Assembly: GCA_022768045.1 (NCBI GenBank)
Contig: JALEND010000032.1
Span: forward strand, 1 to 41,061
DNA: 41,061 bases
Reading direction: 5' to 3'
DNA from: Mycoplasmatota bacterium
GTDB taxonomy: Bacteria; Bacillota_I; Bacilli_A; RF39; UBA660
Under the pieces are notes generated by a model, which saw only the letters and a list, made by a program, of their open reading frames with translations, had not been told where the DNA came from and ran no database searches. Shown piece by piece: positions 1,539 to 41,061 of this stretch. Every line of letters begins with the position of its first letter. Position 1 is the stretch's first letter. Position numbers and translations under genes: made by a program.

Positions 1539-3046
1539 TATTTAAATAATATCATTGGATCCGTACATGTACCTTTATAAGGAGCTCCACCTACCCAAAG
1601 TCCTAGATGTAAGTGTGTACCAGTTGAACGACCAGTACTTCCCATAGTTGCTATTTGTTGTCCTTTTTGAACAGTCTGTCCAGGTGATACTAACTTAGAA
1701 TTTAAGTGAGCATACAATGTCCAATAACCATTACCATGATTTATTATTATATTGTTACCTAAGCTCCATGCAGAGTTACTACTTTCTACTGTTCCTGCTC
1801 CTACTGCATATATTGGAGAACCACTACCTGAACCTGCAATATCTATACCTTGGTGTAATCTACCCCAACGATAAGCAAATGGACTTGATATATAATAAGG
1901 TGATACTGTTGGCCATGCCCAATCTCCAGCTGTTGCAACAATACTATAATTGCCTGAAGTTTGTTTTGTACCAACCTTTACGACCTTGTTAACAGAAGGA
2001 GTAATAGTTTCAGTACTAACAATTACTATGTTAGCAGTAGCTCCATTATCATACTTTATCTTAGTAGTTAATCTATCAGTACCATTTTGACCCTCAGTTA
2101 CTACTTTTTTCGTACCATAATCTAATGTATCATCATTTTCTTCTGTTGTTTTAAACTGGCTTTCTTGATCAAATACCTCATGTTTTTCAACTATTACATC
2201 AATTACTGGATTAATTAAACCAACTTTTACTTGTTGTCCTGGTGATAATAAGTTATTTGCACTTGTAAACTCTGGGTTTACTATTAAAAACTCTGAAGTA
2301 GCTAATTTATTAGCATAAGAAATAGATTCAATAGTATCTCCCTCTTGAACAGTATAATATTGATCATCTTTTAGCTCACCAAACATTAAATATTTAGTTA
2401 ATACTTTTTCATCATTAAAAATATCTTCATCTGTTGAGATATAAGACTCTTTCATAGTTATATTTTGAGCTATATAAATATCTTCTATTAAACTACCAGT
2501 ATCTTTTATCTCCTCTTGAGAATCATTCTTAAAATTATTATAATCTTTTTCTGAAACAAAAGCTTTTACAACTGATTTTATTGCTTTATCTAACATATCT
2601 TTATTAAGTACGTTTATTACTATTTTTTCTTTTTTGATTTTTTCATCAGTTTCATCATTATCAGAAGCCGCATTTTCATAAGGATTTATAGTAACCTTAT
2701 ATCCTTTTACAGTAAATGGCTTTTCCTTTTTTATAATATTATGAACTTGTTTTGCAGATAAAACCTTTTTTTCATAAGTTGTACACTTTTGAATATCAAC
2801 TCCTGTAGGAATATATACCTTATTAACTTTATATTTTTCCTTTAATTCCTGTTGTTCACTATTAATATAATCCTCTAAATCTTTTTTATTTTTTATATTT
2901 CCAATTACTTTTCCATCTAAATAAACTTTATAAACATTCTTTGGAGAAAGTTCATATCTATCAGCAAAGTTTACCATTAACATAATAACAACAGCAAGTG
3001 CTATAGAAATTAAATAAATAAACCCCATTTTTAAATTCTTCATCAT
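1538..3046 (-). CDS. Membrane-anchored LysM / G5 / M23 (LytM) peptidoglycan endopeptidase
   Basis: N-terminal TM helix. LysM (YYTVQEGDTIESISYANKL...PGQQVKV). G5-like segment (DYGTKKVVTEGQNGTD...VVKVGTK). M23 motifs HQGIDIAG and GTHLHLGLW. Confidence 0.8.
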   Translation of the reverse strand: MMKNLKMGFIYLISIALAVVIMLMVNFADRYELSPKNVYKVYLDGKVIGNIKNKKDLEDYINSEQQELKEKYKVNKVYIPTGVDIQKCTTYEKKVLSAKQVHNIIKKEKPFTVKGYKVTINPYENAASDNDETDEKIKKEKIVINVLNKDMLDKAIKSVVKAFVSEKDYNNFKNDSQEEIKDTGSLIEDIYIAQNITMKESYISTDEDIFNDEKVLTKYLMFGELKDDQYYTVQEGDTIESISYANKLATSEFLIVNPEFTSANNLLSPGQQVKVGLINPVIDVIVEKHEVFDQESQFKTTEENDDTLDYGTKKVVTEGQNGTDRLTTKIKYDNGATANIVIVSTETITPSVNKVVKVGTKQTSGNYSIVATAGDWAWPTVSPYYISSPFAYRWGRLHQGIDIAGSGSGSPIYAVGAGTVESSNSAWSLGNNIIINHGNGYWTLYAHLNSKLVSPGQTVQKGQQIATMGSTGRSTGTHLHLGLWVGGAPYKGTCTDPMILFK

Positions 3047-3048
3047 AA

Positions 3049-4398
3049 TTATTCACCATTCTCCCTTTGAAAATTAACCATTGTACTTACATCCATTTTA
3101 AATAATAATTCAACAGTCGAAGTAGGACCACTTCTGTTTTTTCCAATTATTAATTCTACTATACTAGCATTATCATCTCTTCTTTTTGTTTTATCATAAT
3201 AGTCATCTCTATATAAGAATGAAACTATATCGGCATCCTGCTCTATAGAACCTGATTCTCTTAAGTCACTCATTATAGGTCTTTTATCCTCACGAGCTTC
3301 AACAGCACGTGATAACTGTGCCAAGGCAATTACTGGAATACCTAATTCTAGAGCCATTGTTTTTAATCCTCTAGAAATTTCTGAAACCTCTTGTTGACGA
3401 TTACCTGATGATCCTGGTGGACCTGATATTAACTGTAAGTAATCTATTACAACAAGACCTAACCCATTTTCAGAGTTAGCAAGTCTTCTACACTTACTTC
3501 TTATTTCTCCAATTGTAATACCTGGTGTATCATCTAAGAATAAGTTAACATTAGATAATTTACTTATTGCCTCACTAAGTCTTCTCCAATCATTATGCTC
3601 TAGTCTTCCTGTACGCATTTTATTACTATTTATTTGACCTAAAGACTGAAGAATTCTGTTAGCTAACTGCTCAGCACTCATTTCTAAGTTGAATACAGCA
3701 ACTGATTTATTTTGATGCATAGCAGCATATGTTGCAACATTAAGACCAAATACAGTTTTACCCATGGCTGGACGAGCAGCAACTATAACTAACTGACTTG
3801 GTTGAAGACCTGATGTTAACTTATCAAATTCTATAAATCCTGTTGAAAGACCAGTTATATCAGATCCTAACTCAGATAACTTTTCTAGGTTTTCTTGCTC
3901 TTTATATACAACATCTCTTATAGACTTAAACTCTGTTGTCTTACGCATATTAGCAATTCTTAAAATCTTCATTTCAGCATCTGCTAATACATCATAAATA
4001 GAATTTTCTGAAGTATAAGCTTCACTTGCTATATCAGTTGCAGTTTCTATTATTTTTCTTCCAACTTGTTTTTCTCTTAAGATACCAATATAATACTCAA
4101 CATTAGCAGCTGACGGAACAGAATCAATTATTTCAGATAAATACTCTATATTTCCAACTTGACTTAATATTTTTTTATCATTTAATCTATCTGTTACAAT
4201 TGTTATATCAACAGGTACTTGTTCATTATTTAATTCTTGTAATACATTAAATATTTTAGCATTTTGGTCACTGTAAAAAGACTCTTCACTTAATTCATCA
4301 CAAATTTTTTGAAGAGCTACCTTTGATAAAAAGGCAGAACCTAAAACAGCTTTTTCTGCATCTAAATTACTTGGTGTTTTTCTATCTGCCATTTTCAT
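3049..4398 (-). CDS. dnaB: Replicative DNA helicase (DnaB family)
   Basis: 449 aa. NLDAEKAVLGS N-terminal domain, Walker A ARPAMGKT, DYLQLI, RSGPT motifs. The SD AAGGAG favours the second ATG (4392) as the true start. Confidence 0.95.
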   Translation of the reverse strand: MKMADRKTPSNLDAEKAVLGSAFLSKVALQKICDELSEESFYSDQNAKIFNVLQELNNEQVPVDITIVTDRLNDKKILSQVGNIEYLSEIIDSVPSAANVEYYIGILREKQVGRKIIETATDIASEAYTSENSIYDVLADAEMKILRIANMRKTTEFKSIRDVVYKEQENLEKLSELGSDITGLSTGFIEFDKLTSGLQPSQLVIVAARPAMGKTVFGLNVATYAAMHQNKSVAVFNLEMSAEQLANRILQSLGQINSNKMRTGRLEHNDWRRLSEAISKLSNVNLFLDDTPGITIGEIRSKCRRLANSENGLGLVVIDYLQLISGPPGSSGNRQQEVSEISRGLKTMALELGIPVIALAQLSRAVEAREDKRPIMSDLRESGSIEQDADIVSFLYRDDYYDKTKRRDDNASIVELIIGKNRSGPTSTVELLFKMDVSTMVNFQRENGE

Positions 4399-4412
4399 CA
4401 GCTCCTTACTAC

Positions 4413-4853
4413 TTATTTTATTAATTCTACTCTTACACTTGCTACTACTTTTTTATGTAAGTTTAATTTAACATCATGAAACCCTAAAGTATTTATAGGT
4501 GTATCTATCACTATTTTTTTCTTATCAATCTTATATCCTAAATTTTCTAGTTCTTGCATTATTTGTTTAGAAGATATATTTCCAAACACTTGATCTTGAT
4601 TACCAGTTTTTACTTTAAATTTTATTATTTTATTACTTAATTCATTTTTTATCTTATTACATTTTTCTATTTCTAAACGTTCTTCTTCAGCTGCTTTTTT
4701 ATTATTTATATCTAGTATTTCTTTACTTCTTTGTGTATATGCTACCGCATATTTATTTTTTATTAGAAAGTTTTGTGCATATCCGTCACTTACTTCCTTT
4801 ATTTCACCAGCTTTTCCTTGCTTTTTTACATCTTTTATAAATATTACTTTCAA
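4413..4853 (-). CDS. rplI: 50S ribosomal protein L9
   Basis: The ORF is open to 4862 (GTG). TTG at 4853 gives the canonical MKVIFIKDVKKQGKAGEIKEVSDGYAQNFL start, with GAAGGTGA 4-5 nt upstream. Confidence 0.9.
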   Translation of the reverse strand: MKVIFIKDVKKQGKAGEIKEVSDGYAQNFLIKNKYAVAYTQRSKEILDINNKKAAEEERLEIEKCNKIKNELSNKIIKFKVKTGNQDQVFGNISSKQIMQELENLGYKIDKKKIVIDTPINTLGFHDVKLNLHKKVVASVRVELIK

Positions 4854-4913
4854 AGTATTCACCTTCTTTATAAATATTCACATGATTAATTATAACATAT
4901 TTTTTTATATAAT

Positions 4914-4941
4914 AAAAGAAAGCATTTTAAAATGCTTTCTT
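4914..4941 (-). terminator. Rho-independent terminator after rpsR
   Basis: Near-perfect palindrome AGAAAGCAUUU/AAAUGCUUUCU followed by UUUAUUAU on the minus strand, 3 nt after the rpsR stop. Confidence 0.75.
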
Positions 4942-4943
4942 AA

Positions 4944-5159
4944 TTATTTACTAAATGGTAATAAAGCTATCATTCTAGCTCTTTTAATTTGCATTGCAAT
5001 ATTTCTTTGATGCTTAGCACAAGCTCCTGTAACTCTTCTAGGTAATATTTTACCTTTTTCATTTATATATTTTCTTAAAATTTCAGGATTTTTATAATTT
5101 ATACTTCTACCAGCACATAATTGACAAATTTTCTTTTTCTTTCTATAAAATTCTGCCAT
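4944..5159 (-). CDS. rpsR: 30S ribosomal protein S18
   Basis: 71 aa. ...[33 protein letters not shown]... is the S18 signature. Confidence 0.95.
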
Positions 5160-5180
5160 TTGTTATCCTCCTTATCTTAC

Positions 5181-5648
5181 TTAAAATGCTATATCATCGT
5201 CACTAATTTCTATACTACTTCCAAAGTCCGCAAAAACATCGTCTGAAACATTAGTTTCTTTAGGTGCTTCTGTTTGGAAATCAGCTGGTGATACTTCTGA
5301 CGTTACATCATTTTGACCTTCTGGTCTTGAGTTTTTAGAATCTAAAAATTGTACTCTATCAGCTACTATATCAGTAGTGTATACTCTTTTTCCATCCTTA
5401 TCATCATAACTACCAGTTTGAATTCTTCCATCAACTGCTACTAAAGAACCCTTAGTTATGAATTTCTTAATATTCTCTGCTTGTTTATTATATGCAACTA
5501 CTCTAATAAAATCAGTTTCTCTTTGACCATCTTTATTAGTGTATTGTCTATCAATTGCTATTGTAAAATTAACAACAGCAGTGTTGCTAGATGAATATCT
5601 AAGTTCTGGATCTCTTGTTAATCTTCCGATTAAAAATGCTTTATTCAT
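5181..5648 (-). CDS. ssb: Single-stranded DNA-binding protein
   Basis: MNKAFLIGRLTRDPELRY OB-fold start and acidic C-terminal tip ...ISDDDIAF. Flanked by rpsF and rpsR. Confidence 0.95.
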   Translation of the reverse strand: MNKAFLIGRLTRDPELRYSSSNTAVVNFTIAIDRQYTNKDGQRETDFIRVVAYNKQAENIKKFITKGSLVAVDGRIQTGSYDDKDGKRVYTTDIVADRVQFLDSKNSRPEGQNDVTSEVSPADFQTEAPKETNVSDDVFADFGSSIEISDDDIAF

Positions 5649-21653: not shown

Positions 21654-22163
21654 TTATATTAAGCAGCATAGGTTTCGAGAACATGTTTCTATTATAACAT
21701 TAATAATTTCATTATTACTTAAATCTGCCCCAATTATTTTCTTAGACCTAACCCTTTCAATGAACGGTTCTAATTCTTCCAAACAATCTGAAATTATTTC
21801 TTCATTATCAACAAATACATCCATAGTTATAATTTCGTTTGAATTCCCCATCAAATTTGATACAGCTTCAAAAACAATATCGGGAATATCTAATATTCTG
21901 TTACTTGAAAATGATTTAACTTTTATATCTTGCTTTGTATATTCTCCTGTTTTAAGATGTATTACATTAGTGTTTGCTTTCTTACCAAGCTGCCTACTCA
22001 CCTTTAAAATTCTATGAATATAATCAATATCACTAAATTTTAATTCTAAAATTTCTCCCTTGCAAAGTCCACAAAGCAAACCAAACAATATTTCCAAATA
22101 CCACGAACCATTTATGTCTTCTTGTAATAATAATTTTATCGTATTTCCCTTATATTTCTTTAA
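21654..22163 (-). pseudogene. Tyrosine recombinase (phage integrase family) remnant
   Basis: The frame opens straight after a stop with no N-terminal domain. It reads ...WYLEILFGLLCGLCKGEILELKFSDIDY...VKSFSSNRILDIPD, i.e. the box-I region (G-L-R-x-G-E, here with Cys in place of the catalytic Arg) and the following strand. No HxxR or catalytic Tyr follows. Confidence 0.6.
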
Positions 22164-32578: not shown

Positions 32579-33657
32579 CTTTTTTCTCCCTCTTTAAATA
32601 GCTATCAATAAATTCATCTATATAACCATCTAAAACTTTATTAATATTTGATGTTTCATACCCTGTTCTATGATCTTTTATTAATGAATAAGGATGAAGT
32701 ACATAACTCCTTATTTGAGATCCAAATTCTATATTATTACTACCTTTTAATTCATTTATTTTTGATTGTTTTTCTTGTAATTTTATATTATAAATTTTGC
32801 TTTTTAATACATTTAAAGCTGTTTCCTTGTTTTTTATTTGGCTTCTCTCATTTTGACAAGTTACAACTAAATTCATCGGTAAATAAGTAATTCTTACAGC
32901 ACTATCCGTGGTGTTTACACCTTGTCCTCCTGCTCCACTACTTCTATAAACGTCTATTTTTAAATCAGTTTCTTTTATTTCCATATCAATTGCATCATTA
33001 AATTCTGGTATAACATCAACTGCTGCAAATGAAGTATGTCTTCTATTATTGGAATCAAATGGTGATAATCTAACTAATCTATGAACACCTTTTTCTGATT
33101 TTAAGTATCCATAACAGAATTTTCCTTTTACTAAGTAAACAATACTTTTAATGCCTGCCTCATCACCCTTTTGTTCTGACAAAACTTCATACTTATACTT
33201 TTTTTTATCAAAATACTTAGTATACATTCTAGATAACATAAGAGCCCAATCACAACTTTCTGTTCCACCTGCACCTGCATGAATTTCAAATATAGCATTA
33301 TTTTTATCATATTTACCATTTAAATAAGCTAATGTACTTAACTTTTCTAACTCTTTATTTATTGAAATAACATCATTTTTTAGTTCATTTATAAACTCTT
33401 CTTTTTCTAGCATCTCATAATATTCTTCTATATCATTTATCTTCTTTTTTAGTTCAATTACTGGTTTAATAACCTCATTATTTGAACTTAATTTCTGCAC
33501 TAAAGTATTAGAATCATTTCTATCCCAAAATGAACTTTCTTTCATGTCTTCTTCTATTTTTTTATTCTCATTAATTAGTGAATCAACGTCAAAGATTCCT
33601 CCATATTAAATCGAATTTTTGTTTCATTTTATTAATATCTTCTATATTAAATTCCAT
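32565..33657 (-). CDS. prfB: Peptide chain release factor 2, with programmed +1 frameshift
   Basis: ORF0 runs from ATG 33657: MEFNIEDINKMKQKFDLIWRNL-UGA. The site is GGAGGAAUCUU UGA C (CUU 33594-33592, UGA 33591-33589). The +1 frame from GAC 33590 joins the track ORF (DVDSLINENKKIEEDMKESSFW...). SPF and GGQ (SGAGGQGVN) motifs are present. Confidence 0.95.
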
Positions 33658-33794
33658 ATCATCACCTATTTTAATTATAACACGTAATATTTAATATGTA
33701 AATTAATCTTATTTAATATATTGTTTTAACATTTTCCACTATTTGCATTTATATTATATAAATCTTAATCTTTATTTATTTTGAAATTTAAAAT

Positions 33795-33821: not shown

Positions 33822-34061
33822 TTAAGTATTATGAACAATTTAAATTAAAATTAAGTGGTATTTTATGAGTTATATTTTTTTCTTATCATTACTCATTTGT
33901 ATTTCTAAATATAAATCACCAGTTTTAAATTTTTTACAAAGTTTAGAATAATTATCCACATTAAAAGAAACTTTTTTTAAAAATTCTTCTAATGAAATTT
34001 TATCACCTTCATAAGTATAAGAAGATACTTCTTTTGTTACTAACACTATAAAATTAATTTT

Positions 34062-34532
34062 CTATTTTTTATAATTAAAAATAACTGGTGATATACCACA
34101 TGCTTGCGTATAAGGTATATTATTATTAGGTTCTATTTTATAAAAATAACAAATAAATGCAGAAATGTTAACACCACTTGTAACACAAATAATAGTATCA
34201 TCTTCTTCATATTTTTTTACAATATCATCTATAGCTTGCATATTAAGTTTTAAAGCCTCTTTCCACTCCATATTAATCTCATTAAATCTATCATCAAAAT
34301 ATATTGGTGCATTAATGTTTTGATTTATTATCTGAGCTGTATGTAAACACCTTTTATATGGAGAAGTTATAATGGCTTTTATTTTAAATTTTTTTAACGT
34401 TTCTGAAAATAAGGTTGCTTCTTTTATTCCTCTTTCAGTAATATCATCTTCCTGCATTAATTTTGAATCAACTATATTCTCATTTCTATCCCTTTCAGCA
34501 TGATGAACATAAATTATTTTCATTCTTATCAA
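34062..34532 (-). CDS. Histidine phosphatase (phosphoglycerate mutase-like) superfamily protein, with altered catalytic motifs
   Basis: IIYVHHAERD aligns with the l.RHGE. motif, ITERGIKEA..., ITSPYKRCLHTAQ (SP..R...TA block), ICVTSGVNISAF in place of V(S/T)HG. Confidence 0.6.
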   Translation of the reverse strand: MIRMKIIYVHHAERDRNENIVDSKLMQEDDITERGIKEATLFSETLKKFKIKAIITSPYKRCLHTAQIINQNINAPIYFDDRFNEINMEWKEALKLNMQAIDDIVKKYEEDDTIICVTSGVNISAFICYFYKIEPNNNIPYTQACGISPVIFNYKK

Positions 34533-34601
34533 CTCCTTATATTATTATACTTTTAATCTCTTATTTATAACTTTTTTGAAATTATATTTCTTTTTCTAAT
34601 T

Positions 34602-35840
34602 TTATTTAAAATTAACCTTTAGAAATACTTTTTTACCCTTTTGAAGAATTAATGAATTATCAGTTAAATCTTTATCAGTTATTGTTTGATTTATTGAACT
34701 AATTTTTTCTTGGTTAAGTGATATACCATTTTGTTCTATTAACCTTCTAGCTTCTGACTTAGATGTTACTAATTTAGATGCAACAAGTAAATCAATTATA
34801 TTAATATTTAATAAATCTTTAGATAATTCTGTACTTGGCATATTTTCTGATACACCTTTGTTACTAAATAATTCTTCTGCTGTCTTTTGAGCTTTTAAAG
34901 CTTCCTCTTCTCCATGAACTAATTTAGTCACTTCAAATGCTAATAACTTTTTAGCTTCTCTAATATCCTTTTTACAAAGTTCTTTAATATCAGATATTTC
35001 CATTCTTGTAAAGAAAGATAAGCTTCTTTCTACATCTTCATCAAATGAATTAATCCATGCTTGAAAAAAGTCAAATGGTGTAGTCTTATCTCTTGATACC
35101 CATAATGTACCACTAGCTGTTTTGCCCATTTTTTCACCATCTGCTTTAATTAGTAAAGGACAAGTCCACCCAAATAATGGATCTATTTTTTTATCTTCAC
35201 TAAATCCTATCTTACGTGATAAATCCGCTCCTGCTAAAATATTACCCCATTGATCTGAACCACCGATTTGTAATCTGCAACCAAATTCTTTATTTAAATG
35301 TACAAAGTCAAAAGCTTGCATTAACATGTATCCCATCTCCAAGAATGTTAATCCACCCGTTTCTAATCTCTTTTTGTAGCAATCTGCTGATAGCATATTA
35401 TTGACATTAAAATGAACTCCAATATCTCTCATAAAATCCACATATGTTTTGTCGCAAATCCAATCTGCATTATCTACTATAATAGCAGGATTATCACCAT
35501 CCGTTCTTACAAACCTTTTAACTAGTTCTTTTACTTCAGCTTTATTGTGTGCAACTTCTTCTTTTGATAACATTTTTCTCATATCACTTTTACCTGTTGG
35601 ATCTCCAATTAAAGCAGTAGCTCCACCTATTAATATAATTCCATGATGTCCAAAATCTTGAAGCCATCTAAACATTGTTAATGCAAAGAAGTGCCCTATA
35701 TGTAGACTATCTGCAGTTGGATCAATTCCTAAGTAGAAAGTCATAGGTTCTCCATTAACTAAATCAATAATTTCTTGTTCATGTGTAAGGTTTTTAACAT
35801 AACCTCTTTCTTTTAGAATATCAAATAATTTCTTTTCCAT
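34602..35840 (-). CDS. tyrS: Tyrosine--tRNA ligase
   Basis: GIDPTADSLHIGH (HIGH), KMGKT (KMSKS), C-terminal S4 domain ...SKSEARRLIEQNGISLN. Preceded by a T-box leader. Confidence 0.95.
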   Translation of the reverse strand: MEKKLFDILKERGYVKNLTHEQEIIDLVNGEPMTFYLGIDPTADSLHIGHFFALTMFRWLQDFGHHGIILIGGATALIGDPTGKSDMRKMLSKEEVAHNKAEVKELVKRFVRTDGDNPAIIVDNADWICDKTYVDFMRDIGVHFNVNNMLSADCYKKRLETGGLTFLEMGYMLMQAFDFVHLNKEFGCRLQIGGSDQWGNILAGADLSRKIGFSEDKKIDPLFGWTCPLLIKADGEKMGKTASGTLWVSRDKTTPFDFFQAWINSFDEDVERSLSFFTRMEISDIKELCKKDIREAKKLLAFEVTKLVHGEEEALKAQKTAEELFSNKGVSENMPSTELSKDLLNINIIDLLVASKLVTSKSEARRLIEQNGISLNQEKISSINQTITDKDLTDNSLILQKGKKVFLKVNFK

Positions 35841-35919
35841 TTCTATTTCCTCCTAAATAATTTGTACAGTTAATTAAATTACAATCATCAAAGTAATAAT
35901 AGTAATAGTCACTATCCAT
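35821..35919 (-). CDS. Candidate upstream ORF with five consecutive Tyr codons (32 aa), overlapping the tyrS SD and start
   Basis: AAGGAGGUGA, 5 nt, then ATG 35919: MDSDYYYYYFDDCNLINCTNYLGGNRNGKEII*. The stop is UGA at 35823-35821, 17 nt inside tyrS in another frame. Too short for the ORF track. No homology evidence. Confidence 0.3.
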   Translation of the reverse strand: MDSDYYYYYFDDCNLINCTNYLGGNRNGKEII

Positions 35920-35934
35920 ACAAATCACCTCCTT

Positions 35935-36155
35935 GAAAATAAAAAAGAGCAATCAATCCATAAAGGACGAATTGCTCGTGGTACCACCTTTGTTTGTAAT
36001 AATAGTTTATTACCTCTTATTGATAACGGATACTATCCGACTTAAAATCATCATTTGTAATTCATCATCTTAATTTTGTTTGTTTCCACCAATCACAAAC
36101 TCTCTATAAATTATATTAAAATAATTACTTCGAACGAATCGCTTTTTAATTAACT
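35935..36155 (-). promoter_or_regulatory. T-box riboswitch leader (Tyr specifier candidate UAC) with intrinsic terminator
   Basis: Minus strand carries AGAGAG...UGGUGGAAAC stem-I elements, GAAUUACAAAU (UAC followed by A), and the conserved T-box AAAGGUGGUACCACG (35977-35991). The terminator is GAGCAAU...AUUGCUC (35947-35977) followed by UUUUUUAUUUU. Confidence 0.85.
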
Positions 36156-36161
36156 AACATA

Positions 36162-36190
36162 ATTGTACTATATTTTATGCTTTTTTGCAA
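36162..36190 (-). promoter_or_regulatory. Sigma-A type promoter for the tyrS T-box leader
   Basis: TTGCAA (36185-36190), 17-nt spacer, TACAAT (36162-36167) on the minus strand. The -35 lies inside SEC-C tail remnant copy A. Confidence 0.5.
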
Positions 36191-36290
36191 ATCCGATGAC
36201 TTTTATATTTTTTCACCGAACCACATTGTAAAATATTAAAACAATCGATTAATTTTTCCTTTTAAATTGTTATTTTTTATTTTAATTTAA
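36175..36290 (-). repeat. SEC-C-tail module, copy A (decayed)
   Basis: Minus-strand reading: NKK*QFKRK(K)LIDCFNILQCGSVKKYKSHRICKKA*. There is a 1-nt loss in an A-run relative to copy D and about 75 nt of collinear similarity to copy D. It starts at the stop of the NTPase pseudogene. Confidence 0.6.
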
Positions 36291-36833
36291 TAATTTTTTA
36301 TAATTTGATTCAAAATTCAGTAAAGTTTGCATTGCGCTTATAACTGCTGAAGATTCAAATACATCTCTTCTGTAATACCCATTTGTAAGATATCCAGTTA
36401 TTCCGTTATCCTTTTTATTATTACTATTATTAAGAATATTTTCAATAACTTTATTCAAAGAGTTTCCATCCTTAACATAATTAAACATTCTTTCAGTAAT
36501 TTGAAGTCCATTTGATTTACCAATAAATTCATTACCATTTTTATCTAATATTGATGCATAAGTAACAATAAAATATGTATTATCTATCTTCTCATATACA
36601 CCTTCAATACTTACTAATAAATCAAAAGAAATATCGTTTTCTACGCAATAATTATATAAATTTTTATTTCTGTTTCTTGCTCCTATTAGGGTTTAATCAT
36701 TAATAGGTTTAGAATTTACTTGAGAATTAACACTAACAGGGATAATAGAAACATCATCAAAACCTAATTCTTTCATTGCAATTAAAATTGATCTTTGTTT
36801 GGAAACATTTGTAGAACCTAAAATTATTTTCAT
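36282..36833 (-). pseudogene. YjjX/DUF84-type non-canonical purine NTP phosphatase, interrupted by one in-frame TAA
   Basis: ATG 36833: MKIILGSTNVSKQRSILIAMKELGF...SKPIND-TAA(36695-36693)-TLIGARNRNKNLY...GITGYLTNGYYRRDVFESSAVISAMQ. A single frame runs throughout (36833-36695 and 36833-36488 are both multiples of 3). Confidence 0.7.
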
Positions 36834-36865
36834 ACTTTTTCCTTTCTAATTTTTTATAAAACAAA

Positions 36866-36919
36866 CTATTTACCACAACATTGTTTATATTTCTTTGCGC
36901 TGCCACAAGGCCTTTGATA
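36866..36919 (-). repeat. SEC-C-tail module, copy B
   Basis: The minus strand reads (TAA)YQRPCGSAKKYKQCCGK-TAG with no start codon. The stop-proximal 15 nt (plus strand ctatttaccacaaca) are identical to copy D. Confidence 0.75.
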
Positions 36920-37002
36920 TTATGGATTTTGGGAGTACTCCGCAGCACTCAGTAACCCTAGCAGAACTTATCTAATGTAAATGTTAAATATTTTTGCAGA
37001 AT

Positions 37003-38553
37003 TTATCTATGTTTATGTGAAATTTCATAATTTTCTAAATTTTGATTTTCGGATGAAGCATATTCTTGCCGTTTAACAAGTTTTTTGTGTGTTGGAAACA
37101 GTCCACCACAGACTGTTGGGATTTGATGAATATCAGTAATACTTCCATCTAATAAATAATTTGTTCTAACTCTTTCCAGATTACAATCTATACCATCAGT
37201 CAATGACAAATATGATATACCATCAAGTTGTACATCTGATTTTCTAATAATATCTGATATTTCTTCAATTTTTTGATGTTTATATGAATAAACTTGCTCG
37301 AGCGTAACATCAGGATTATTGCCAAATAATCTAGGTATCTGAGTCCTACCTAACGACATATCAAACTCAGTAATCTGAATTTTCTTTTCGGCTCTTTTTT
37401 GTAAGATTCTAAAGTCTTCAAAACAACGTCTAATTTTATTTTCATCTTCACTGATTGTTATATGCATCTGCGAACCCAAAGTATCAATTAATCCAGGACG
37501 CTTAGAATCGATTTCATCTAACACTTCAAATACTTTTTTTCTTCTTTCATCATCTTCTAAAAATGGTTCATTATATAAGAAACTTACGCCATCAGGTTTA
37601 TGTTGTAAAGCATAATCAAAAGCTGGTAGAAGTTCATCCATGGTTATACCATATTTACTTTCCCATATATTATAATATTCTCCATTAGCATTTTTTTCAA
37701 AACTAACAATTTCATTAAATAAATCTACTGCATTTATTAAAGGCATATCTTGTCCATTAACATTAAATCTATGATTTTGATTATAATCATTTATAAAATC
37801 AATACTTTCTTTAACATAGTCTTTTATAATTTTTAATATTTCTTCTTTAGATTTTCCAATAAATAGACTTTCCATACCATCTTTTACTAACAATGAATGA
37901 TATCTAACTTGTTTGCCATTTCGATATGCAAAATCTAAATCTCTTTTTGCAAAATAAAAATCAAATCTTTTATCAGGATTATTCTCATCATATAAATCAT
38001 TTACTACATTATATATTCTTCCAGATCCTATTAACATACTATTAAAATTATCTAAGTTTCTGTTTAACAAAACCATTTCTTCATATAAATCATCTGTTTT
38101 AAGTTGATCTCTTTCTGTAGAAACAAAATGATGCCTCATATCAAATATTTCTTCATAATTGGTAGGATATTTATTTTTAATAAACTCTCTTAACCAAGGC
38201 ATAATTTCAGGAGAATTATTTGATATTGCATTTTTGATTATATCTATATCATTTTCTTGAATGCCACAATGTCTAAGTTTATTTTCAATCTTAATTTCAT
38301 TATCTGCATCATGAAATACCATAGTATCTTGATAACTCTTAAAAACTTTTTTCTTAAAATCATCCAAAGGTAAAGTTATCAAGTTTTCTAAATCTTCTTT
38401 ACTATAATTATATTTTATTTGGTCACAGTGAATAATAAAGTTAATTAGTTCACTACTATCTTTACATTGTATTATAGATAGTAGGTCAATTTGTTCCGCA
38501 CTAAAATATCCACCAATAATATCTGTATTAACTTGCAAACAATTTACATCCAT
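37003..38553 (-). CDS. Cytoplasmic glycoside hydrolase family 10-like (TIM-barrel) protein with ~150-aa N-terminal extension
   Basis: No signal peptide. FDFYFAKRDLDFAYRNGKQVRYHSLLV (compare fnF..aD..v.fA..nG..vRGHtLvW), AVDLFNEIV (WDVVNE acid/base), FLYNEPF (NDYN), LIDTLGSQMHI (IDGIGmQsH), KIQITEFDMSL (ITELD nucleophile). Own TGGTATAAT promoter about 15 nt before the SD. Confidence 0.6.
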   Translation of the reverse strand: MDVNCLQVNTDIIGGYFSAEQIDLLSIIQCKDSSELINFIIHCDQIKYNYSKEDLENLITLPLDDFKKKVFKSYQDTMVFHDADNEIKIENKLRHCGIQENDIDIIKNAISNNSPEIMPWLREFIKNKYPTNYEEIFDMRHHFVSTERDQLKTDDLYEEMVLLNRNLDNFNSMLIGSGRIYNVVNDLYDENNPDKRFDFYFAKRDLDFAYRNGKQVRYHSLLVKDGMESLFIGKSKEEILKIIKDYVKESIDFINDYNQNHRFNVNGQDMPLINAVDLFNEIVSFEKNANGEYYNIWESKYGITMDELLPAFDYALQHKPDGVSFLYNEPFLEDDERRKKVFEVLDEIDSKRPGLIDTLGSQMHITISEDENKIRRCFEDFRILQKRAEKKIQITEFDMSLGRTQIPRLFGNNPDVTLEQVYSYKHQKIEEISDIIRKSDVQLDGISYLSLTDGIDCNLERVRTNYLLDGSITDIHQIPTVCGGLFPTHKKLVKRQEYASSENQNLENYEISHKHR

Positions 38554-38714
38554 AAATATCTTCTCCTAATTATATTATACCATTAAAATAAGGCATATTT
38601 GTTTTATTTTTTGCAAATTTTATTATAAAAATGATTTTTAGATACGTTTTGTATTCAAATTGAGAATTATGTTTCTATATACGCTAAACCTTTATATTGT
38701 AAGGTTTTACGAGC

Positions 38715-38750
38715 TTATTTACCGCAGCGCTATTTATACTTCTTATCCTA
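38715..38750 (-). repeat. SEC-C-tail module, copy C (decayed, internally deleted)
   Basis: The minus strand reads (TAG)DKKYK-TAG-RCGK-TAA. The PCG part is missing. The ~15 nt after the stop (GCTCGTAAAACCTTA) resemble those after copy D (CCTCACAAGCCCTTA). Confidence 0.55.
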
Positions 38751-38884
38751 ATATTTTTTTAGTTAATTTATATTAGATATTATACTATTTTTATATTACT
38801 AAACAATCAATTTGCTCAAATTCGATCAAATTAAATCTTATTCACTTCATTTTCAAAATTTAATAACTTTTGTTATATTTATCA

Positions 38885-39646
38885 TTATTTTTTTCCAATT
38901 ATTCCGTAATATCTTCTGATTAATTTGATACCTTTTTCAGTAGTGTTTTGTTCAACATATTTTTCAAACATTTTCTTCTCTATTGGTCTTCTTTCATATT
39001 CTTTAAATGATTCTTCGGAAAAGTCATCTAATATTGGTGTTTTAATTAATAATGCATATAAATCTTCTTTTGTTTTGAAGTACTCTATTACATGGAGTGG
39101 GATTAATTCAACTTCTTTAAATCCTGCATCCATTATTGCTTCATAATCTATTAAGCTTACAGGTTTAACATCGTGATATGCTTGTCCTCTTTTAAACATT
39201 CTTTTTAAAGACCAACAATCCAATTTATCAACACCTCTTATAACAAGTTGTCCACCTTTTTTTAATGTTTTATATATTTGCAGTGGATCAATTATTGTAT
39301 GACGCGCTGTTACTAAATCAAAGTAATTATCTGGAGTATTCATTTTTAGATTGTCCATAACTCTAAATGAAATATTCTTTCTTCCACTTTGTAATAAATT
39401 TTTATTAGCTGTTTCTATCATTTCATCAGAGAAATCTGTTCCCAATATTTCAGCACAATTCGGAAAATTTTTAAGTACTTTTTCTCCTGCTGCTGTTCCC
39501 AAATCTAAAATTTTTGTATTTTCTTTTACACGTTTTTTTATTTCATCTTCATAAATCCAATTTGTAATTACTTCGCTAGTATAGTCTATATCTTCAAAAG
39601 ACCAATTAGCTATTTCACTATAAAAATCATGTTCGTTTGTTTTCAT
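38885..39646 (-). CDS. Class I SAM-dependent methyltransferase
   Basis: 253 aa. Motif I ILDLGTAAGEKV, post-I acidic GTDFSDEMI, motif IV-like FDLVTARHT, GGQLVIRG. Confidence 0.8.
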   Translation of the reverse strand: MKTNEHDFYSEIANWSFEDIDYTSEVITNWIYEDEIKKRVKENTKILDLGTAAGEKVLKNFPNCAEILGTDFSDEMIETANKNLLQSGRKNISFRVMDNLKMNTPDNYFDLVTARHTIIDPLQIYKTLKKGGQLVIRGVDKLDCWSLKRMFKRGQAYHDVKPVSLIDYEAIMDAGFKEVELIPLHVIEYFKTKEDLYALLIKTPILDDFSEESFKEYERRPIEKKMFEKYVEQNTTEKGIKLIRRYYGIIGKK

Positions 39647-39850
39647 TTTCTACCATCCTCTCTTAATCTAAAATATGATTGTATATAAAAAGAACCTCCT
39701 TTCATGAATACAACACAAAAAACAATCACAAAATTAATGTGTATATTTTTTGTCATTCATGAGGAGATTCTTAAGACTCTTCATTATTCCTTTAAACATT
39801 TATTTATCTGGTAGTAAAACGCGAATGACCAATTGATTTACTACATTTGA
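39647..39850 (-). promoter_or_regulatory. Structured ~200-nt 5' leader of the methyltransferase gene with terminator-type hairpin (unclassified cis-regulator)
   Basis: First hairpin: GUAGUAAA-18 nt-UUUACUAC. Then a long stem, GAAUCUCCUCAUGAAUGA (39753-39770) pairing with UAUUCAUGAAAGGAGGUUC (39692-39710), followed by UUUUUAUAU. The inner loop is itself self-complementary (ACAAAAAA...UUUUUUGU, CACA...UGUG). Confidence 0.5.
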
Positions 39851-39879
39851 ATTATAACAAATTAGTACTAATATGTCAA
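39851..39879 (-). promoter_or_regulatory. Consensus sigma-A promoter for the methyltransferase leader
   Basis: TTGACA (39874-39879), exactly 17 nt, TATAAT (39851-39856) on the minus strand. Confidence 0.7.
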
Positions 39880-39893
39880 AAAGCACTACAAAC

Positions 39894-39936
39894 AAAAAGG
39901 ATGTCAGCATTTAAAAATGTTGTCTGCATCCTTTTT
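39894..39936. terminator. Imperfect hairpin flanked by A-run and T-run (possible bidirectional terminator)
   Basis: AAAAAGGATG(T)CAG...CTGCATCCTTTTT. GGATG/CATCC plus CAG/CTG pairs with bulges. U-tracts are present on both strands. It closes the GNAT/copy-D unit before the methyltransferase promoter. Confidence 0.45.
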
Positions 39937-40035
39937 ACTTATTTTTTAATTCTGTCCGCATTATTTATGCTGTGTAGACAAATTTATCATTTTTTCTATT
40001 TTTAACAATTTCTTATTTTATAAGGGCTTGTGAGG

Positions 40036-40134
40036 CTATTTACCACAACAATTTTTGTACTTTTTGCCGTTTCCACATGGTAAGATATTAAAACAACCTT
40101 GTAATTTTTTCCTTTTTAATTGGTGTTTTTTATT
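40036..40134 (-). repeat. SEC-C-tail module, copy D (best preserved)
   Basis: The minus strand reads (TAA)NKKHQLKRKKLQGCFNILPCGNGKKYKNCCGK-TAG. The frame is 32 codons long with no ATG/GTG/TTG start, about 75 nt downstream of the GNAT stop. Confidence 0.75.
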
Positions 40135-40207
40135 TTAAATCTATATTTTTTTACTGAAATATTGCAAGTTCTTATTCAATAACTTATCTAAAAAAATTTA
40201 TTTTTTA

Positions 40208-40690
40208 TTACAGCTTTTTGATATCGGTATACATTCTAGGATGATATCCTTTTTTATTATAAAAATTAATAGCATTTTCATTATAAGCAAAAACATCAAC
40301 CAAAACATATTCACAATTATTAAACTTAAAATATTCTTCCATCTTATCCATTAAAACTTGTCCAACACCTTTACTTCTAATTTTATTTGTAACGATTAAT
40401 TCTGTAATTTCTCCTCTTTTAGGACATTTATAGTCTAGATAATCATATTCGTCATATGTAGGAATCGTACCCATAATAAGTCCGATTACTTTATTGTTTT
40501 CTACTGCTAAATAGCATTTACCATTATTCTTATTAACATCTTCTAAATCTAAAACTGCCATTTTTTCTCTATATTCAGGATGAACTTGATCCAAATGATC
40601 TTTATCTATTGATACTATATACTCTTCAAGTTCAACTAATAAGTCTTTAACATCTTCTATATATTTATCTTCATATTCTATTACTTGCAT
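40208..40690 (-). CDS. GNAT-family N-acetyltransferase
   Basis: 160 aa. Motif A ITELIVTNKIRSKGVGQVLMDKMEEY (R/Q-x-x-G-x-G), motif B AINFYNKKGY. Confidence 0.85.
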   Translation of the reverse strand: MQVIEYEDKYIEDVKDLLVELEEYIVSIDKDHLDQVHPEYREKMAVLDLEDVNKNNGKCYLAVENNKVIGLIMGTIPTYDEYDYLDYKCPKRGEITELIVTNKIRSKGVGQVLMDKMEEYFKFNNCEYVLVDVFAYNENAINFYNKKGYHPRMYTDIKKL

Positions 40691-41055
40691 TTTTTAATCA
40701 CCTCAAATACTTCAAATATCACTTTAGTATTTTCATTAAAATTAGGATCTATTTTTTTAAAAAAATTCATATGATTTTCTTTCCATTCATTTAATGATTT
40801 ATCCTCACCCTCTAATTTTGCTAAATCCCATGTAATATTTTTAAATTCAGTAATAATAACATTAATTGTTTTTATAAAGCATACATTGTTATCTTTTAAA
40901 TCAGTCAATATTGATATATTCCCAACTTTTGAAACATTATCCAGTTCATATAAAGATGTAGTAGCTGTCTTTTTACCATCTAATACAAGATTAACTAATC
41001 TATCTACATCAATTCCAAAAGTCCATCTATCGGGTTTATTTAATAGAACTATCAT
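40681..41055 (-). CDS. ASCH-domain (PUA-like fold, YqfB-type) protein
   Basis: 124 aa. ...DGKKTATTSLYE... N-terminal strand and LAKLEGEDKSLNEWKENHMNFF (the EGEGD.SL..W...H..FF block of ASCH proteins). Overlaps the GNAT start by 10 nt. Confidence 0.7.
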   Translation of the reverse strand: MIVLLNKPDRWTFGIDVDRLVNLVLDGKKTATTSLYELDNVSKVGNISILTDLKDNNVCFIKTINVIITEFKNITWDLAKLEGEDKSLNEWKENHMNFFKKIDPNFNENTKVIFEVFEVIKKCK

Positions 41056-41061
41056 TTTTTC

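What the first reader, a model, noticed from the sequence alone, without database searches (positions are those of the whole stretch)
36175..40150. Four direct copies of a SEC-C/SecA-tail-like coding remnant punctuate a string of unrelated accessory genes
- Position of the copies: on the minus strand, each of four consecutive and functionally unrelated genes is followed within about 0-135 nt by the same short module in the same orientation. The genes are the GNAT, the SAM methyltransferase, the GH10-like protein and the YjjX-type NTPase pseudogene.
- Copy D (40036-40134) reads NKKHQLKRKKLQGCFNILPCGNGKKYKNCCGK*.
- Copy C (38715-38750) reads DKKYK*RCGK* and has an internal deletion.
- Copy B (36866-36919) reads YQRPCGSAKKYKQCCGK*.
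- Copy A (36175-36290) reads KRK(K)LIDCFNILQCGSVKKYKSHRICKKA* and has a 1-nt A-run deletion.
- Shared flanks: B and D share 15 identical stop-proximal nt. A and D are collinear over about 75 further nt. C and D also share about 15 nt downstream of the stop.
- None has a start codon and none is in frame with the gene in front.
- The ...PCG.GKKYK.CCGK end is the SEC-C metal-binding tail type known from SecA and YecA-like proteins, although the first Cys of the canonical C-x-C is missing.
- At least three of the four units have their own promoter: TGGTATAAT for GH10, consensus TTGACA-17-TATAAT for the methyltransferase, and the tyrS promoter -35 sits inside decayed copy A.
- Inference: this is the signature expected when cassettes insert repeatedly into the 3' end of one target gene and each event duplicates that 3' end, as happens with islands targeting tRNA or tmRNA genes. 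Alternatively the module is a cassette-borne recombination site.
- Synteny: secA-prfB is a conserved pair in Firmicutes, yet prfB (33657) has no secA in front of it here. A SecA-tail origin is therefore a concrete hypothesis.
- No recombinase is visible in this part of the window.
Basis: partly seen in the sequence, partly recalled or inferred. Interest (0 to 1): 0.72.

Follow-up and report, generated by a model that had tools for sequence, protein, structure and literature searches.

The report
Integration-site scars copied from secA's end
The four repeats are leftover attachment sites, each a copy of the last 14 codons of secA, left where phages and other integrase-carrying elements inserted one after another behind secA in an uncultured gut bacterium; this is a known mechanism acting at a previously unlisted target.

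Summary

- **The repeats.** Copies D and B are strong matches to the 3' end of secA. C and A are decayed but significant.
- **secA heads the array.** In a contig of the same species, secA (ending CPCGSGKKYKQCCGK*) sits about 660 nt beyond the window end. The array lies between secA and prfB.
- **Specificity.** In about 1.2 Mb of related loci, all 152 core copies lie on the secA strand. None lies upstream of secA.
- **Site anatomy.** Each junction looks like a full attP-type site: a P arm carrying TTAGATA(A/C)(G/C) motifs, then the 45-nt core, then a P' arm.
- **Recombinases.** Three tyrosine-integrase lineages sit next to such cores in relatives: a 37-kb tailed prophage, a mobilizable element with Xis and a MobV relaxase, and one more.
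- **Turnover.** Near-identical genomes differ by whole cassettes (0.7 to 6.4 kb) bounded by duplicated cores.

The window's four units carry no integrase. They fit the known picture of tandem accretion followed by decay into cis-mobilizable elements.

New points: the target (the SecA zinc-binding tail), the density of one-gene cassettes, and a T-box–tyrS unit that behaves as a horizontally spreading cassette.

The parts
40681..41061 (-). 3' part (ASCH domain) of a GNAT-ASCH fusion gene, cut by the window end. It is the first gene of cassette 1, directly downstream of secA.
   Evidence: Pfam ASCH. The full gene of 289 to 294 aa is seen in L105 and L201. Window 41061 aligns to L201 6151, and secA stops at L201 5493.
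40208..40690 (-). GNAT acetyltransferase, the second gene of cassette 1.
   Evidence: Pfam Acetyltransf_1. Relatives at about 82% aa identity occur in other secA arrays: L168, L185 and L186.
40081..40201 (-). P arm of copy D (element-borne, not secA sequence). It carries the arm-type motif TTAGATAAGTT at 40191-40181.
   Evidence: 79-87% identity to the arms before remnants in L004, L163 and L198. Motif position.
40036..40080 (-). Core of copy D: a copy of the last 14 codons of secA plus the stop codon (PCGNGKKYKNCCGK*).
   Evidence: nhmmer 44 bits, E = 2.7e-11. The 99.6% homology to conspecific strains begins exactly at 40080.
39647..40035 (-). P' side and leader of the methyltransferase cassette. 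It holds the consensus promoter at 39879-39851, a 16-aa leader ORF and a long hairpin followed by a U run.
   Evidence: 82% identity to L007 71-560 and 89% to L127, where it follows the real secA end. Promoter. Fold z = -3.9.
38885..39646 (-). SAM-dependent methyltransferase (cassette 2).
   Evidence: Pfam Methyltransf_31/25/11. In L127 the same cassette directly follows intact secA.
38715..38750 (-). Copy C: a decayed core whose 5' half is deleted.
   Evidence: nhmmer 15.7 bits, E = 0.018. C plus 26 nt downstream (38741-38689) is 87% identical to the L134 secA end plus terminator.
38638..38648 (+). Arm-type motif variant TTAGATACGTT, inverted, in the P' region after copy C.
   Evidence: The same P' arm type (GAATACAAAACGTATCTAAA) precedes the tyrS unit in L002 and L004.
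37003..38553 (-). GH10-like protein (cassette 3).
   Evidence: Pfam Glyco_hydro_10. The whole cassette 38710-36929 is 83.5% identical to L186 7073-8881, where it has different neighbours.
36913..36975 (-). P arm of copy B, with the arm-type motif TTAGATAAGTT at 36975-36965.
   Evidence: Matches the arms before cores in L004, L163, L186 and L201, and resembles the P arm at the attR of the IMG/VR prophage.
36866..36912 (-). Core of copy B (PCGSAKKYKQCCGK*).
   Evidence: nhmmer 48 bits, E = 1.6e-12.
36282..36833 (-). NTPase_I-T (YjjX-type) pseudogene with one internal stop (cassette 4).
   Evidence: Pfam hits on both halves. An intact 194-aa version occurs in L147. The same cassette directly follows secA in L141 and L142.
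36175..36301 (-). Copy A: a D-type P arm plus the 5' half of a core. It is truncated at 36192, where the tyrS promoter block begins.
   Evidence: 85-87% identity over about 100 nt to L004, L163 and L198.
34597..36192 (-). T-box-tyrS unit: promoter 36190-36162, T-box 36151-35960 and tyrS 35840-34602. It is a cassette-like unit inside the array region.
   Evidence: Rfam T-box, 94 bits. It is a sharply bounded conserved block in about 30 species. It is flanked by P' and P arms and cores in L002 and L004, with a P arm after tyrS in L003. TyrRS is 91-96% identical where SecA is 58-69% identical.
34062..34532 (-). Histidine-phosphatase family gene. It is the last gene of the segment that is absent in conspecific strains L109 and L114.
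   Evidence: Pfam His_Phos_1. The presence/absence junction carries the 12-16-nt repeat TTATAAAAAAT(AG), at 36858-36843 and 34074-34059.

Best explanation
**What the module is**
- The four modules are attachment-site (att) scars.
- In this clade of uncultured, low-GC gut Bacilli, the last 45 nt of secA plus its terminator serve as the chromosomal attachment site. That stretch encodes (P)CGSGKKYKQCCGK*, most of the SEC-C zinc-binding tail.
- Several lineages of arm-binding tyrosine integrases use this site. They are carried by temperate phages and by integrative mobilizable elements.

**How the array forms**
- Each incoming element carries its own copy of this core. The core is flanked by a P arm and a P' arm that hold TTAGATA(A/C)(G/C) motifs.
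- Strand exchange occurs at the 5' edge of the core, at C(A/T)TGTGG. This leaves secA intact and puts a second, bodiless copy of the tail at the far end of the element.
- Further integrations at the secA end, or at interior cores, pile elements up in tandem between secA and prfB.
- Loss of the integrase and transfer genes then leaves short units of one or two genes, each with its own promoter and each still bounded by cores.

**The window**
- It shows such a decayed array: secA (just off the window) | GNAT-ASCH + GNAT | D | methyltransferase | C | GH10-like | B | NTPase pseudogene | A | T-box-tyrS ... prfB.
- D and B are still intact sites. C and A are broken.

**Shown versus inferred**
- Shown: the secA origin, the polarity, the integrases in the same locus, the motif positions, and cassette-wise polymorphism.
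- Inferred: that the integrases catalyse these events, that the motifs are their arm sites, and that units without an integrase are moved in trans or in cis.
For: **secA origin**
- Real secA genes end with this core in L002 and L005, in L121-L200 and in the same species, L201.

**Polarity and specificity**
- All 152 core hits lie on the secA strand.
- None lies upstream of secA, although 10 kb of upstream flank is present in many loci.
- Arrays reach four extra copies.
- 29 of 48 secA loci with at least 1.5 kb of downstream sequence carry one or more remnants.

**A complete element**
- IMGVR_UViG_3300028833_003330 is a 37-kb tailed prophage: secA end | Int376 | S24 repressor | ... | type I R-M | remnant.

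**Other integrase lineages next to cores**
- Int452, and Int428 with an HTH_17 Xis-like gene and a Mob_Pre relaxase, lie downstream of the secA core in L143.
- Conspecific strains carry int377 and int295 in the same array.

**Arm motif**
- 54 copies lie at -200 to -100 before 79 remnants. None lies at that position before 69 real secA ends.
- 55 copies lie at +50 to +100 after cores, out of 177 forward-strand copies in 1.21 Mb.
- In the window, the only two exact TTAGATAAGTT copies lie just upstream of D and B.

**Fixed 5' boundary**
- The homology to secA starts at the same position in every arm class.

**Clean polymorphisms**
- L168 against L164 (99% identical): a 6.4-kb unit between 41-nt duplicated cores.
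- L199 against L196 (96-97% identical): a 0.7-kb one-ORF unit between 72-nt duplicates.
- Window against L108-type strains: different cassettes upstream of D, with the breakpoint exactly at 40080.

**Coding signature**
- Remnants keep the codon-position variation of functional tails: 0.107/0.065/0.370 against 0.066/0.056/0.379.

**Modularity**
- The window's cassettes recur with other neighbours in L127, L141, L142, L147, L152 and L186.
Against: - No integrase or integrase fragment lies in the window array.
- Excision, circular forms and integrase-site binding could not be tested.
- The 6.4-kb and 0.7-kb polymorphic units carry no integrase. Their gain or loss needs an integrase in trans, or homologous recombination between cores or through flanking homology. 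The data cannot tell these apart.
- The deletion or insertion next to copy B, the segment from the NTPase pseudogene to the histidine-phosphatase gene (NTPase-A-tyrS-HisPhos), ends in a 12-16-nt AT-rich microhomology rather than in a core.
- In L201 the GNAT genes are joined to the int377 element without a core between them.
- The codon-position test used only cores scoring at least 25 bits, which favours well-kept copies.
Confidence: 0.85

Rival explanations
1. A dedicated, integron-like cassette platform. The one- or two-gene units are not wrecks of larger elements. They are genuine minimal cassettes (P' arm, promoter, gene, P arm, core) that are excised as circles and re-inserted at the secA end by an integrase supplied in trans.
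For: - 67 inter-core segments have a median length of 1.5 kb, mostly hold 1-2 ORFs, and nearly all ORFs lie on the secA strand.
- A complete 0.7-kb unit with both arms, its own promoter and one ORF is present or absent between genomes that are 96-97% identical.
- The same cassettes occur with different neighbours and in a different order: GH10 lies before GNAT in L186 but after it in the window.
- Interior junctions keep arm motifs at fixed distances.
Against: - Larger integrase-bearing phages and mobilizable elements use the same site. Decay intermediates are visible: a truncated int295, a replisome-organizer/integrase chimera and split integrases. Decay is therefore sufficient to explain short units.
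- No integrase has a fixed position next to the array.
- No circular forms were observed.
- GNAT homology between arrays covers only the gene, not the cassette ends.
Confidence: 0.25
2. Present-day shuffling is driven by homologous recombination rather than by integrases. The cores, together with the flanking secA and prfB, act as portable homology. Array segments imported from relatives replace or delete resident segments through this homology.
For: - Duplicated cores of 41-72 nt are long enough for RecA-dependent deletion.
- The GNAT cassette of the window-type strain is only 91-92% identical to that of L201, while the rest of the array is 99.6% identical. This looks like an imported patch.
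- One polymorphism ends in microhomology rather than in a core.
Against: - It does not explain how bodiless tail copies arose in the first place.
- It does not explain the fixed 5' boundary at C(A/T)TGTGG in all arm classes.
- It does not explain the positional arm motifs.
- It does not explain the integrases sitting next to cores.
Confidence: 0.15
3. The module is a generic intergenic repeat (REP/MITE-like), a chance similarity in AT-rich DNA, or a family of small SEC-C peptide genes.
For: - The sequence is AT-rich (26.6% GC).
- 40 of 54 distinct remnants keep an open frame with the stop codon in place.
Against: - E-values reach 1e-12.
- The 152 copies in about 1.2 Mb all lie downstream of secA on its strand. 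None lies elsewhere in the 41-kb window.
- The copies have no start codons and variable upstream sequence.
- No terminal inverted repeats were seen, and the cores do not fold better than shuffled sequence (z = 0.0 and +0.55).
Confidence: 0.02

Closest known systems
Tandem accretion of ICEs, IMEs and prophages with cis-mobilizable elements (CIMEs) at the 3' end of housekeeping genes in streptococci, e.g. ICESt1/ICESt3 at fda and IMEs at rpsI, rplL, rpmG and guaA (review PMC5704250)
   Same: - Tyrosine integrases.
- Direct repeats that contain the 3' end of the target gene, so the gene stays intact.
- The sequence of integration, decay to an integrase-less unit that keeps its att sites, then a further integration.
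- Several distantly related integrases sharing one site.
   Different: - The target is secA's SEC-C tail, which is not among the targets listed in that review (0 mentions of secA) and was not found in four other full-text searches.
- The host is an uncultured, reduced-genome gut lineage.
- Arrays are denser, with up to five cores and median units of 1.5 kb.
- No excision data exist here.
SCC and pseudo-SCC composite islands at the 3' end of rlmH (orfX) in staphylococci (from my own knowledge)
   Same: - Arrays of cargo units behind one conserved gene.
- Units are separated by direct repeats derived from that gene's last codons.
- Many units lack a recombinase and depend on one supplied in trans.
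   Different: - SCC elements use large serine recombinases (Ccr) and short repeats of about 15-18 nt without arm sites.
- Here the recombinases are arm-binding tyrosine integrases and the core is 45 nt plus a terminator.
ssrA-specific genomic islands in Dehalococcoides (PMC3146451, listed; abstract only was read)
   Same: Horizontally acquired islands that integrate at one single-copy gene (from the abstract). That these islands form tandem arrays delimited by repeats of the gene's 3' end is from my own recollection, not from what I read.
   Different: - The target there is an RNA gene (tmRNA), not a protein tail.
- I did not read the paper beyond its abstract.
Integrons (IntI, attI, attC cassettes)
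   Same: - Functionally similar outcome: a one-directional array of short, mostly single-gene cassettes.
- Cassettes are bounded by recombination sites behind a fixed entry point.
   Different: - No IntI-type integrase lies next to the array.
- The sites are direct copies of a coding sequence with arm motifs, not structured attC hairpins. The cores fold no better than shuffled sequence.
- Cassettes carry their own promoters.

Membership tests
Site-specific integrative elements (prophage/IME/ICE) with tandem accretion and CIMEs | Direct repeats flanking each unit contain the 3' end of the target gene. | tested here: met
   The cores match secA ends. The window cores are D, C, B and A.
Site-specific integrative elements (prophage/IME/ICE) with tandem accretion and CIMEs | The target gene stays intact at the head of the array. 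| tested here: met
   Same-species L201 has an 831-aa SecA with all SecA domains and SEC-C, directly followed by the GNAT-ASCH unit. The same holds in L002 and L005.
Site-specific integrative elements (prophage/IME/ICE) with tandem accretion and CIMEs | A tyrosine (or serine) integrase is encoded by elements at this site, next to an att end. | tested here: met
   Int376 lies next to the secA core in a 37-kb prophage. Int452 and Int428 with Xis and Mob_Pre occur in L143. int377 and int295 occur in conspecific arrays. None is in the window itself.
Site-specific integrative elements (prophage/IME/ICE) with tandem accretion and CIMEs | Presence/absence polymorphism with breakpoints at the repeats. 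| tested here: met
   L168 against L164, L199 against L196, L163 against L164, and the window against L108.
Site-specific integrative elements (prophage/IME/ICE) with tandem accretion and CIMEs | Integrase-dependent excision to a circular form and re-integration. | not testable with these tools
   This needs reads or experiments. None were available.
CIME (cis-mobilizable element) | Keeps its left and right att sites but has lost the integration and transfer genes. | tested here: met
   The window units carry no integrase. D and B are intact sites with arm motifs. C and A are broken, so only the secA end, D and B remain usable.
Integron | IntI-type integrase and attI next to the array. | tested here: not met
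   The gene next to the array is secA. The integrases found are Arm-DNA-bind_4/SAM_3/Phage_integrase types at variable positions.
Integron | attC sites: imperfect inverted repeats that fold as single-stranded hairpins. | tested here: not met
   Cores D and B folded as ssDNA give z = 0.0 and +0.55 against shuffles. The only structure in intact copies is the terminator after the stop codon.
REP/MITE-type dispersed repeat | Many copies at unrelated intergenic sites, on both strands. | tested here: not met
   All 152 copies are on the secA strand downstream of secA. There are none elsewhere in the window.
SEC-C motif protein genes | A translatable ORF with a start codon and the full C-x-C...C-(C/H) zinc site. 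| tested here: not met
   There is no start codon, and the first Cys codon lies outside the duplicated core. The Pfam SEC-C hit is below its cut-off.

The most novel reading that the evidence does not exclude
The secA tail is the entry point of an integron-like cassette platform in RF39-type gut Bacilli. Minimal self-promoted cassettes are captured, reordered and exchanged between divergent lineages by integrases acting in trans. These cassettes include a T-box-regulated tyrosyl-tRNA synthetase gene that may be the cell's only tyrS. An essential translation gene would then travel as a mobile cassette.
Probability: 0.2. Interest if true: 0.75.

Novelty: new member of a known kind. Interest (0 to 1): 0.5.

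Why it matters
- **A concrete hotspot in a poorly known group.** It gives a sequence-defined integration hotspot for an abundant but uncultured group of gut bacteria whose mobile elements are almost undescribed. The hotspot is the 45-nt secA tail plus arms carrying TTAGATA(A/C)(G/C) motifs.
- **A search handle for flexible genes.** The core is a simple way to pull the flexible gene pool of these genomes out of metagenomes. Cargo seen here includes GNAT acetyltransferases, restriction-modification systems, RhuM, Ltp, ABC transporters, an Erm-like methyltransferase in sister strains, and TrpRS/TyrRS genes.
- **An explanation for broken synteny.** It explains why the conserved Firmicutes hpf–secA–prfB cluster is interrupted here.
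- **Horizontal transfer of tyrS.** The T-box–tyrS unit has cassette-type ends. It is 91–96% identical between genomes whose SecA is only 58–69% identical. This is a testable case of horizontal replacement or addition of an aminoacyl-tRNA synthetase.
- **A candidate genetic tool.** The integrases and their 45-nt site are candidates for site-specific tools in a lineage that currently has no genetics.

Tried and rejected
**Searches that gave nothing or little**
- An exact-protein look-up of the ASCH fragment found nothing, because the gene runs off the window.
- The GH10 look-up gave only a 1.7-kb contig.
- Rfam searches found no family for the module or the leaders, apart from the T-box.
- There is no tRNA or tmRNA gene in the window, so this is not a tRNA-type island.
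- The simple terminator scan found none in the window array. The secA terminator that accompanies intact cores elsewhere has decayed here.
- Five full-text searches and one review gave no report of secA's 3' end as an attachment site.

**Readings tested and rejected**
- Integrase fragments hidden in the window array: tblastn found none.
- Integron-type folded sites: rejected.
- REP/MITE-type repeat, chance similarity, or small-peptide genes: rejected.
- Compositional signal of foreign DNA: none. The array is 25.4% GC and the backbone 26.8%.

**Not resolved**
- I considered whether copy A's 3' half is a diverged core fused to native sequence downstream of secA. The similarity is too weak, so I treat A as truncated at the tyrS promoter.
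A genome-wide census of cores in complete genomes was therefore not possible.

Full report
**1. The observation**

On the minus strand the window reads as follows:
- ASCH domain (41055–40681) and GNAT (40690–40208), then copy D (40134–40036)
- SAM methyltransferase (39646–38885), then copy C (38750–38715)
- GH10-like protein (38553–37003), then copy B (36919–36866)
- NTPase_I-T pseudogene (36833–36282), then copy A (36290–36175)
- T-box (36151–35960), tyrS (35840–34602), a histidine-phosphatase gene, a 58-aa ORF, and prfB

The repeats are real.
- The repeat finder gives D–C at 53 nt and 72% identity, D–A at 48 nt and 85%, and D–B at 45 nt and 78%.
- The 15-mer next to the stop codon is exact only at B and D in the window.
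- None of the copies has a start codon or is in frame with the gene before it.
- The copy D peptide touches Pfam SEC-C just below threshold.

**2. The source is the end of secA**

I fetched loci around relatives of tyrS. The closest ones carry a real secA upstream.
- L002 3280–5772 has all SecA domains plus SEC-C. L005 4296–6821 is the same kind of gene.
- Both end in ...CPCGSGKKYKQC(C/H)GK*.
- The same genomes also carry bodiless copies of that end.

I built a 48-nt profile of the core; window copies B and D were among its ten input sequences.
- It scores window copy B at 48 bits and D at 44 bits, which is as good as real secA ends.
- C reaches E = 0.018. A is weak for the core alone.
- A's upstream arm matches other remnants at 85–87% over about 100 nt.
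- C plus 26 nt of downstream sequence matches the secA end plus terminator of L134.
- Independently of the profile, the D and B cores match real secA ends in L170, L160 and others at 86–89%.

The homology to secA always begins at the same point, C(A/T)TGTGG, whatever sequence lies upstream. This is why the first Cys of the C-x-C pair is missing from every remnant.

**3. secA heads the array in this very species**

Exact-protein look-ups found contigs of the same species. I walked upstream with one homology search and one further look-up.
- The resulting contig, L201, reads: CSD, hpf, secA (2998–5493), GNAT-ASCH, GNAT, and so on.
- Window position 41061 aligns to L201 6151. The secA stop is therefore about 660 nt beyond the window end.
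- The short contig of the window-type strain (L105) begins exactly at that core.
- In relatives the order is secA, then the array, then prfB (L174, L182 and L181).
- The array therefore splits the hpf–secA–prfB cluster. I recall that cluster as conserved in Firmicutes; that point is my own knowledge.

**4. The module is locus-specific and polar**

A metagenome scan with SecA returned 80 more loci.
- In the window plus 89 loci (about 1.2 Mb), all 152 core hits lie on the secA strand.
- None lies upstream of secA, although many loci include 10 kb of upstream flank.
- Arrays hold up to four extra copies.
- Of 48 secA loci with at least 1.5 kb of downstream sequence, 29 have one or more remnants. 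Several of the others have an integrase downstream of secA, within about 3.5 kb of its core.

This rules out a REP/MITE-type repeat.

**5. The recombinases**

A pattern scan of viral contigs found IMGVR_UViG_3300028833_003330. It is a tailed temperate phage inserted in the secA core. Its layout is:
- the secA 3' end
- Int376 on the opposite strand
- an S24 repressor, Erf, an exonuclease and a replisome organizer
- tail proteins, a holin and an endolysin
- a type I restriction-modification system
- a remnant reading FPCGSGKKYKQCCGK*, 37 kb from the secA end

Its left and right sites are identical only over the first 17 nt of the core. This places the crossover at the 5' edge.

L091 and L093 show the same architecture of integrase next to remnant.

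L143 shows, in order after the secA core:
- Int452 (Arm-DNA-bind_4 + SAM_3 + catalytic domain)
- an HTH protein
- an HTH_17 Xis-like gene
- Int428
- a Mob_Pre relaxase

This is the make-up of an integrative mobilizable element.

Conspecific strains of the window carry two integrases in the same array:
- int377, which is 56% identical to the phage Int376
- a truncated int295

**6. Each junction is a full attP-like site**

The 9-mer TTAGATA(A/C)(G/C) occurs 177 times on the forward strand in 1.21 Mb.
- 54 copies lie 100–200 nt before the stop of 79 remnants.
- None lies at that position before 69 real secA ends.
- 55 copies lie 50–100 nt after cores.

In the window, the only two exact TTAGATAAGTT copies sit just upstream of D and B on the array strand. 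An inverted variant lies after C.

The integrases have arm-binding domains. I therefore read these motifs as arm-type sites. This is an inference.

The cores themselves do not fold as single strands, so they are unlike integron attC sites.

**7. Cassettes are the unit of change**

Inter-core segments:
- There are 67 inter-core segments with a median length of 1.5 kb.
- Most hold one or two ORFs, nearly all on the secA strand.

Insertion or deletion polymorphisms:
- L168 and L164 are 99% identical. They differ by a 6.4-kb integrase-less unit between 41-nt duplicated cores.
- L199 and L196 are 96–97% identical. They differ by a 0.7-kb unit with one 131-aa ORF, its own promoter and both arms.
- L163 has three extra units at an interior core relative to L164.

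The window's own cassettes recur with different neighbours:
- the methyltransferase unit directly after secA in L127
- the NTPase unit directly after secA in L141 and L142
- the GH10 unit between other cassettes in L186

Within the species:
- L108-type strains carry DUF4238 + S51 peptidase before the D-position core, where the window has GNAT-ASCH + GNAT.
- The 99.6% homology between these strains starts exactly at 40080.
- Variation occurs at the intact cores D and B, not at the broken C and A.

Coding signature:
- Remnants keep the third-codon-position variation of functional tails.
- This is expected if each was once, or was built to become, the real end of secA.

**8. Cargo**

The Pfam census of 77 non-redundant ORFs gave:
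- ten GNATs
- ABC transporters
- GH10-like proteins
- RhuM
- two restriction-modification pairs
- Ltp
- queuosine salvage
- class Ib aminoacyl-tRNA synthetases

**9. Comparison with what is known**

The pattern matches the three-step scheme described for streptococcal IMEs and ICEs (PMC5704250):
- integration at the 3' end of a housekeeping gene
- decay to a cis-mobilizable element that keeps its att sites
- integration of a further element

secA is not among the targets listed in that review. Four other searches found no report of it.

SCC elements at rlmH are a functional analogue that uses serine recombinases; this is from my own knowledge. Integrons resemble this system only in outcome.

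I therefore file it as a new member of a known kind.

**10. An extension: tyrS**

- The promoter–T-box–tyrS block (36192–34597) is conserved at 77–93% nt identity in about 30 species. Its ends are sharp and its flanks are unrelated.
- In L002 and L004 it sits between cores, preceded by a P' arm and followed by a B-type P arm. In L003 the B-type P arm after tyrS is also present, and a core lies upstream.
- TyrRS is 91–96% identical between genomes whose SecA is 58–69% identical.
- Against L007, TyrRS is 93% identical while PrfB, FtsE, FtsX and YitT are 47–70% identical.
- Two conspecific strains lack the segment from the NTPase pseudogene to the histidine-phosphatase gene, including tyrS.

The tyrS unit therefore spreads horizontally and behaves as a cassette of this system. 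Whether these genomes hold another tyrS is unknown.

**11. Limits**

- No excision product, circular form or integrase activity could be observed.
- Homologous recombination between cores cannot be separated from integrase action for the recent events.
- One polymorphism ends in microhomology rather than in a core.

Noticed in passing
window 34597-36192 (minus strand); L002, L003, L004: The T-box-tyrS unit has cassette-type ends in relatives. TyrRS is 91-96% identical between genomes whose SecA is only 58-69% identical. Conspecific strains L109 and L114 lack it at this locus. This is probable horizontal spread of an aminoacyl-tRNA synthetase gene.
   Followed up: partly
window 39640-39879 (minus strand): The methyltransferase has a perfect sigma-70 consensus promoter, a 16-aa leader ORF (MKSLKNLLMNDKKYTH) and a long hairpin with a U run that masks an AGGAGG (z = -3.9). 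It looks like a translation-attenuation leader of the kind seen before inducible resistance genes. There is no Rfam match. A 77% similar leader precedes an ABC protein in L024.
   Followed up: partly
window 36843-36858 and 34059-34074: A 12-16-nt direct repeat, TTATAAAAAAT(AG), marks the ends of the 2.8-kb segment (NTPase pseudogene, copy A, tyrS, histidine phosphatase) that is absent in strains L109 and L114. This is a microhomology junction, not a core junction.
   Followed up: yes
L005 8400-9661; L139, L144, L146, L148: The Int428-type integrase is split into two ORFs with the same -1 frame change in five different loci. It is either an inherited pseudogene or a programmed frameshift.
   Followed up: no
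L201 10001-12026 (same species as the window): Sister strains carry, in the same array, a replisome-organizer/integrase/IstB chimeric ORF and an RrnaAD (Erm-like) rRNA methyltransferase. This is a possible macrolide-resistance cargo.
   Followed up: no
window about 33590-33660 (minus strand): prfB shows the classical +1 programmed frameshift site: CTT TGA C preceded by GGAGG.
   Followed up: no
L173/L174 13044-13217; L197-L199: Some remnants are longer, with about 57 codons open. In L173 and L174 they are about 57% identical to the SecA tail. Not all duplications therefore stop at the 45-nt core.
   Followed up: no
window 21654-22097 (minus strand): A 147-aa ORF has a weak tblastn match to the phage-type integrase (E = 0.001) but no Pfam hit. 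It may be an old integrase fragment next to uvrB.
   Followed up: partly
L036, L042, L044: More distant relatives carry two tyrS-like genes in tandem, each 72-76% nt identical to the window's tyrS.
   Followed up: no
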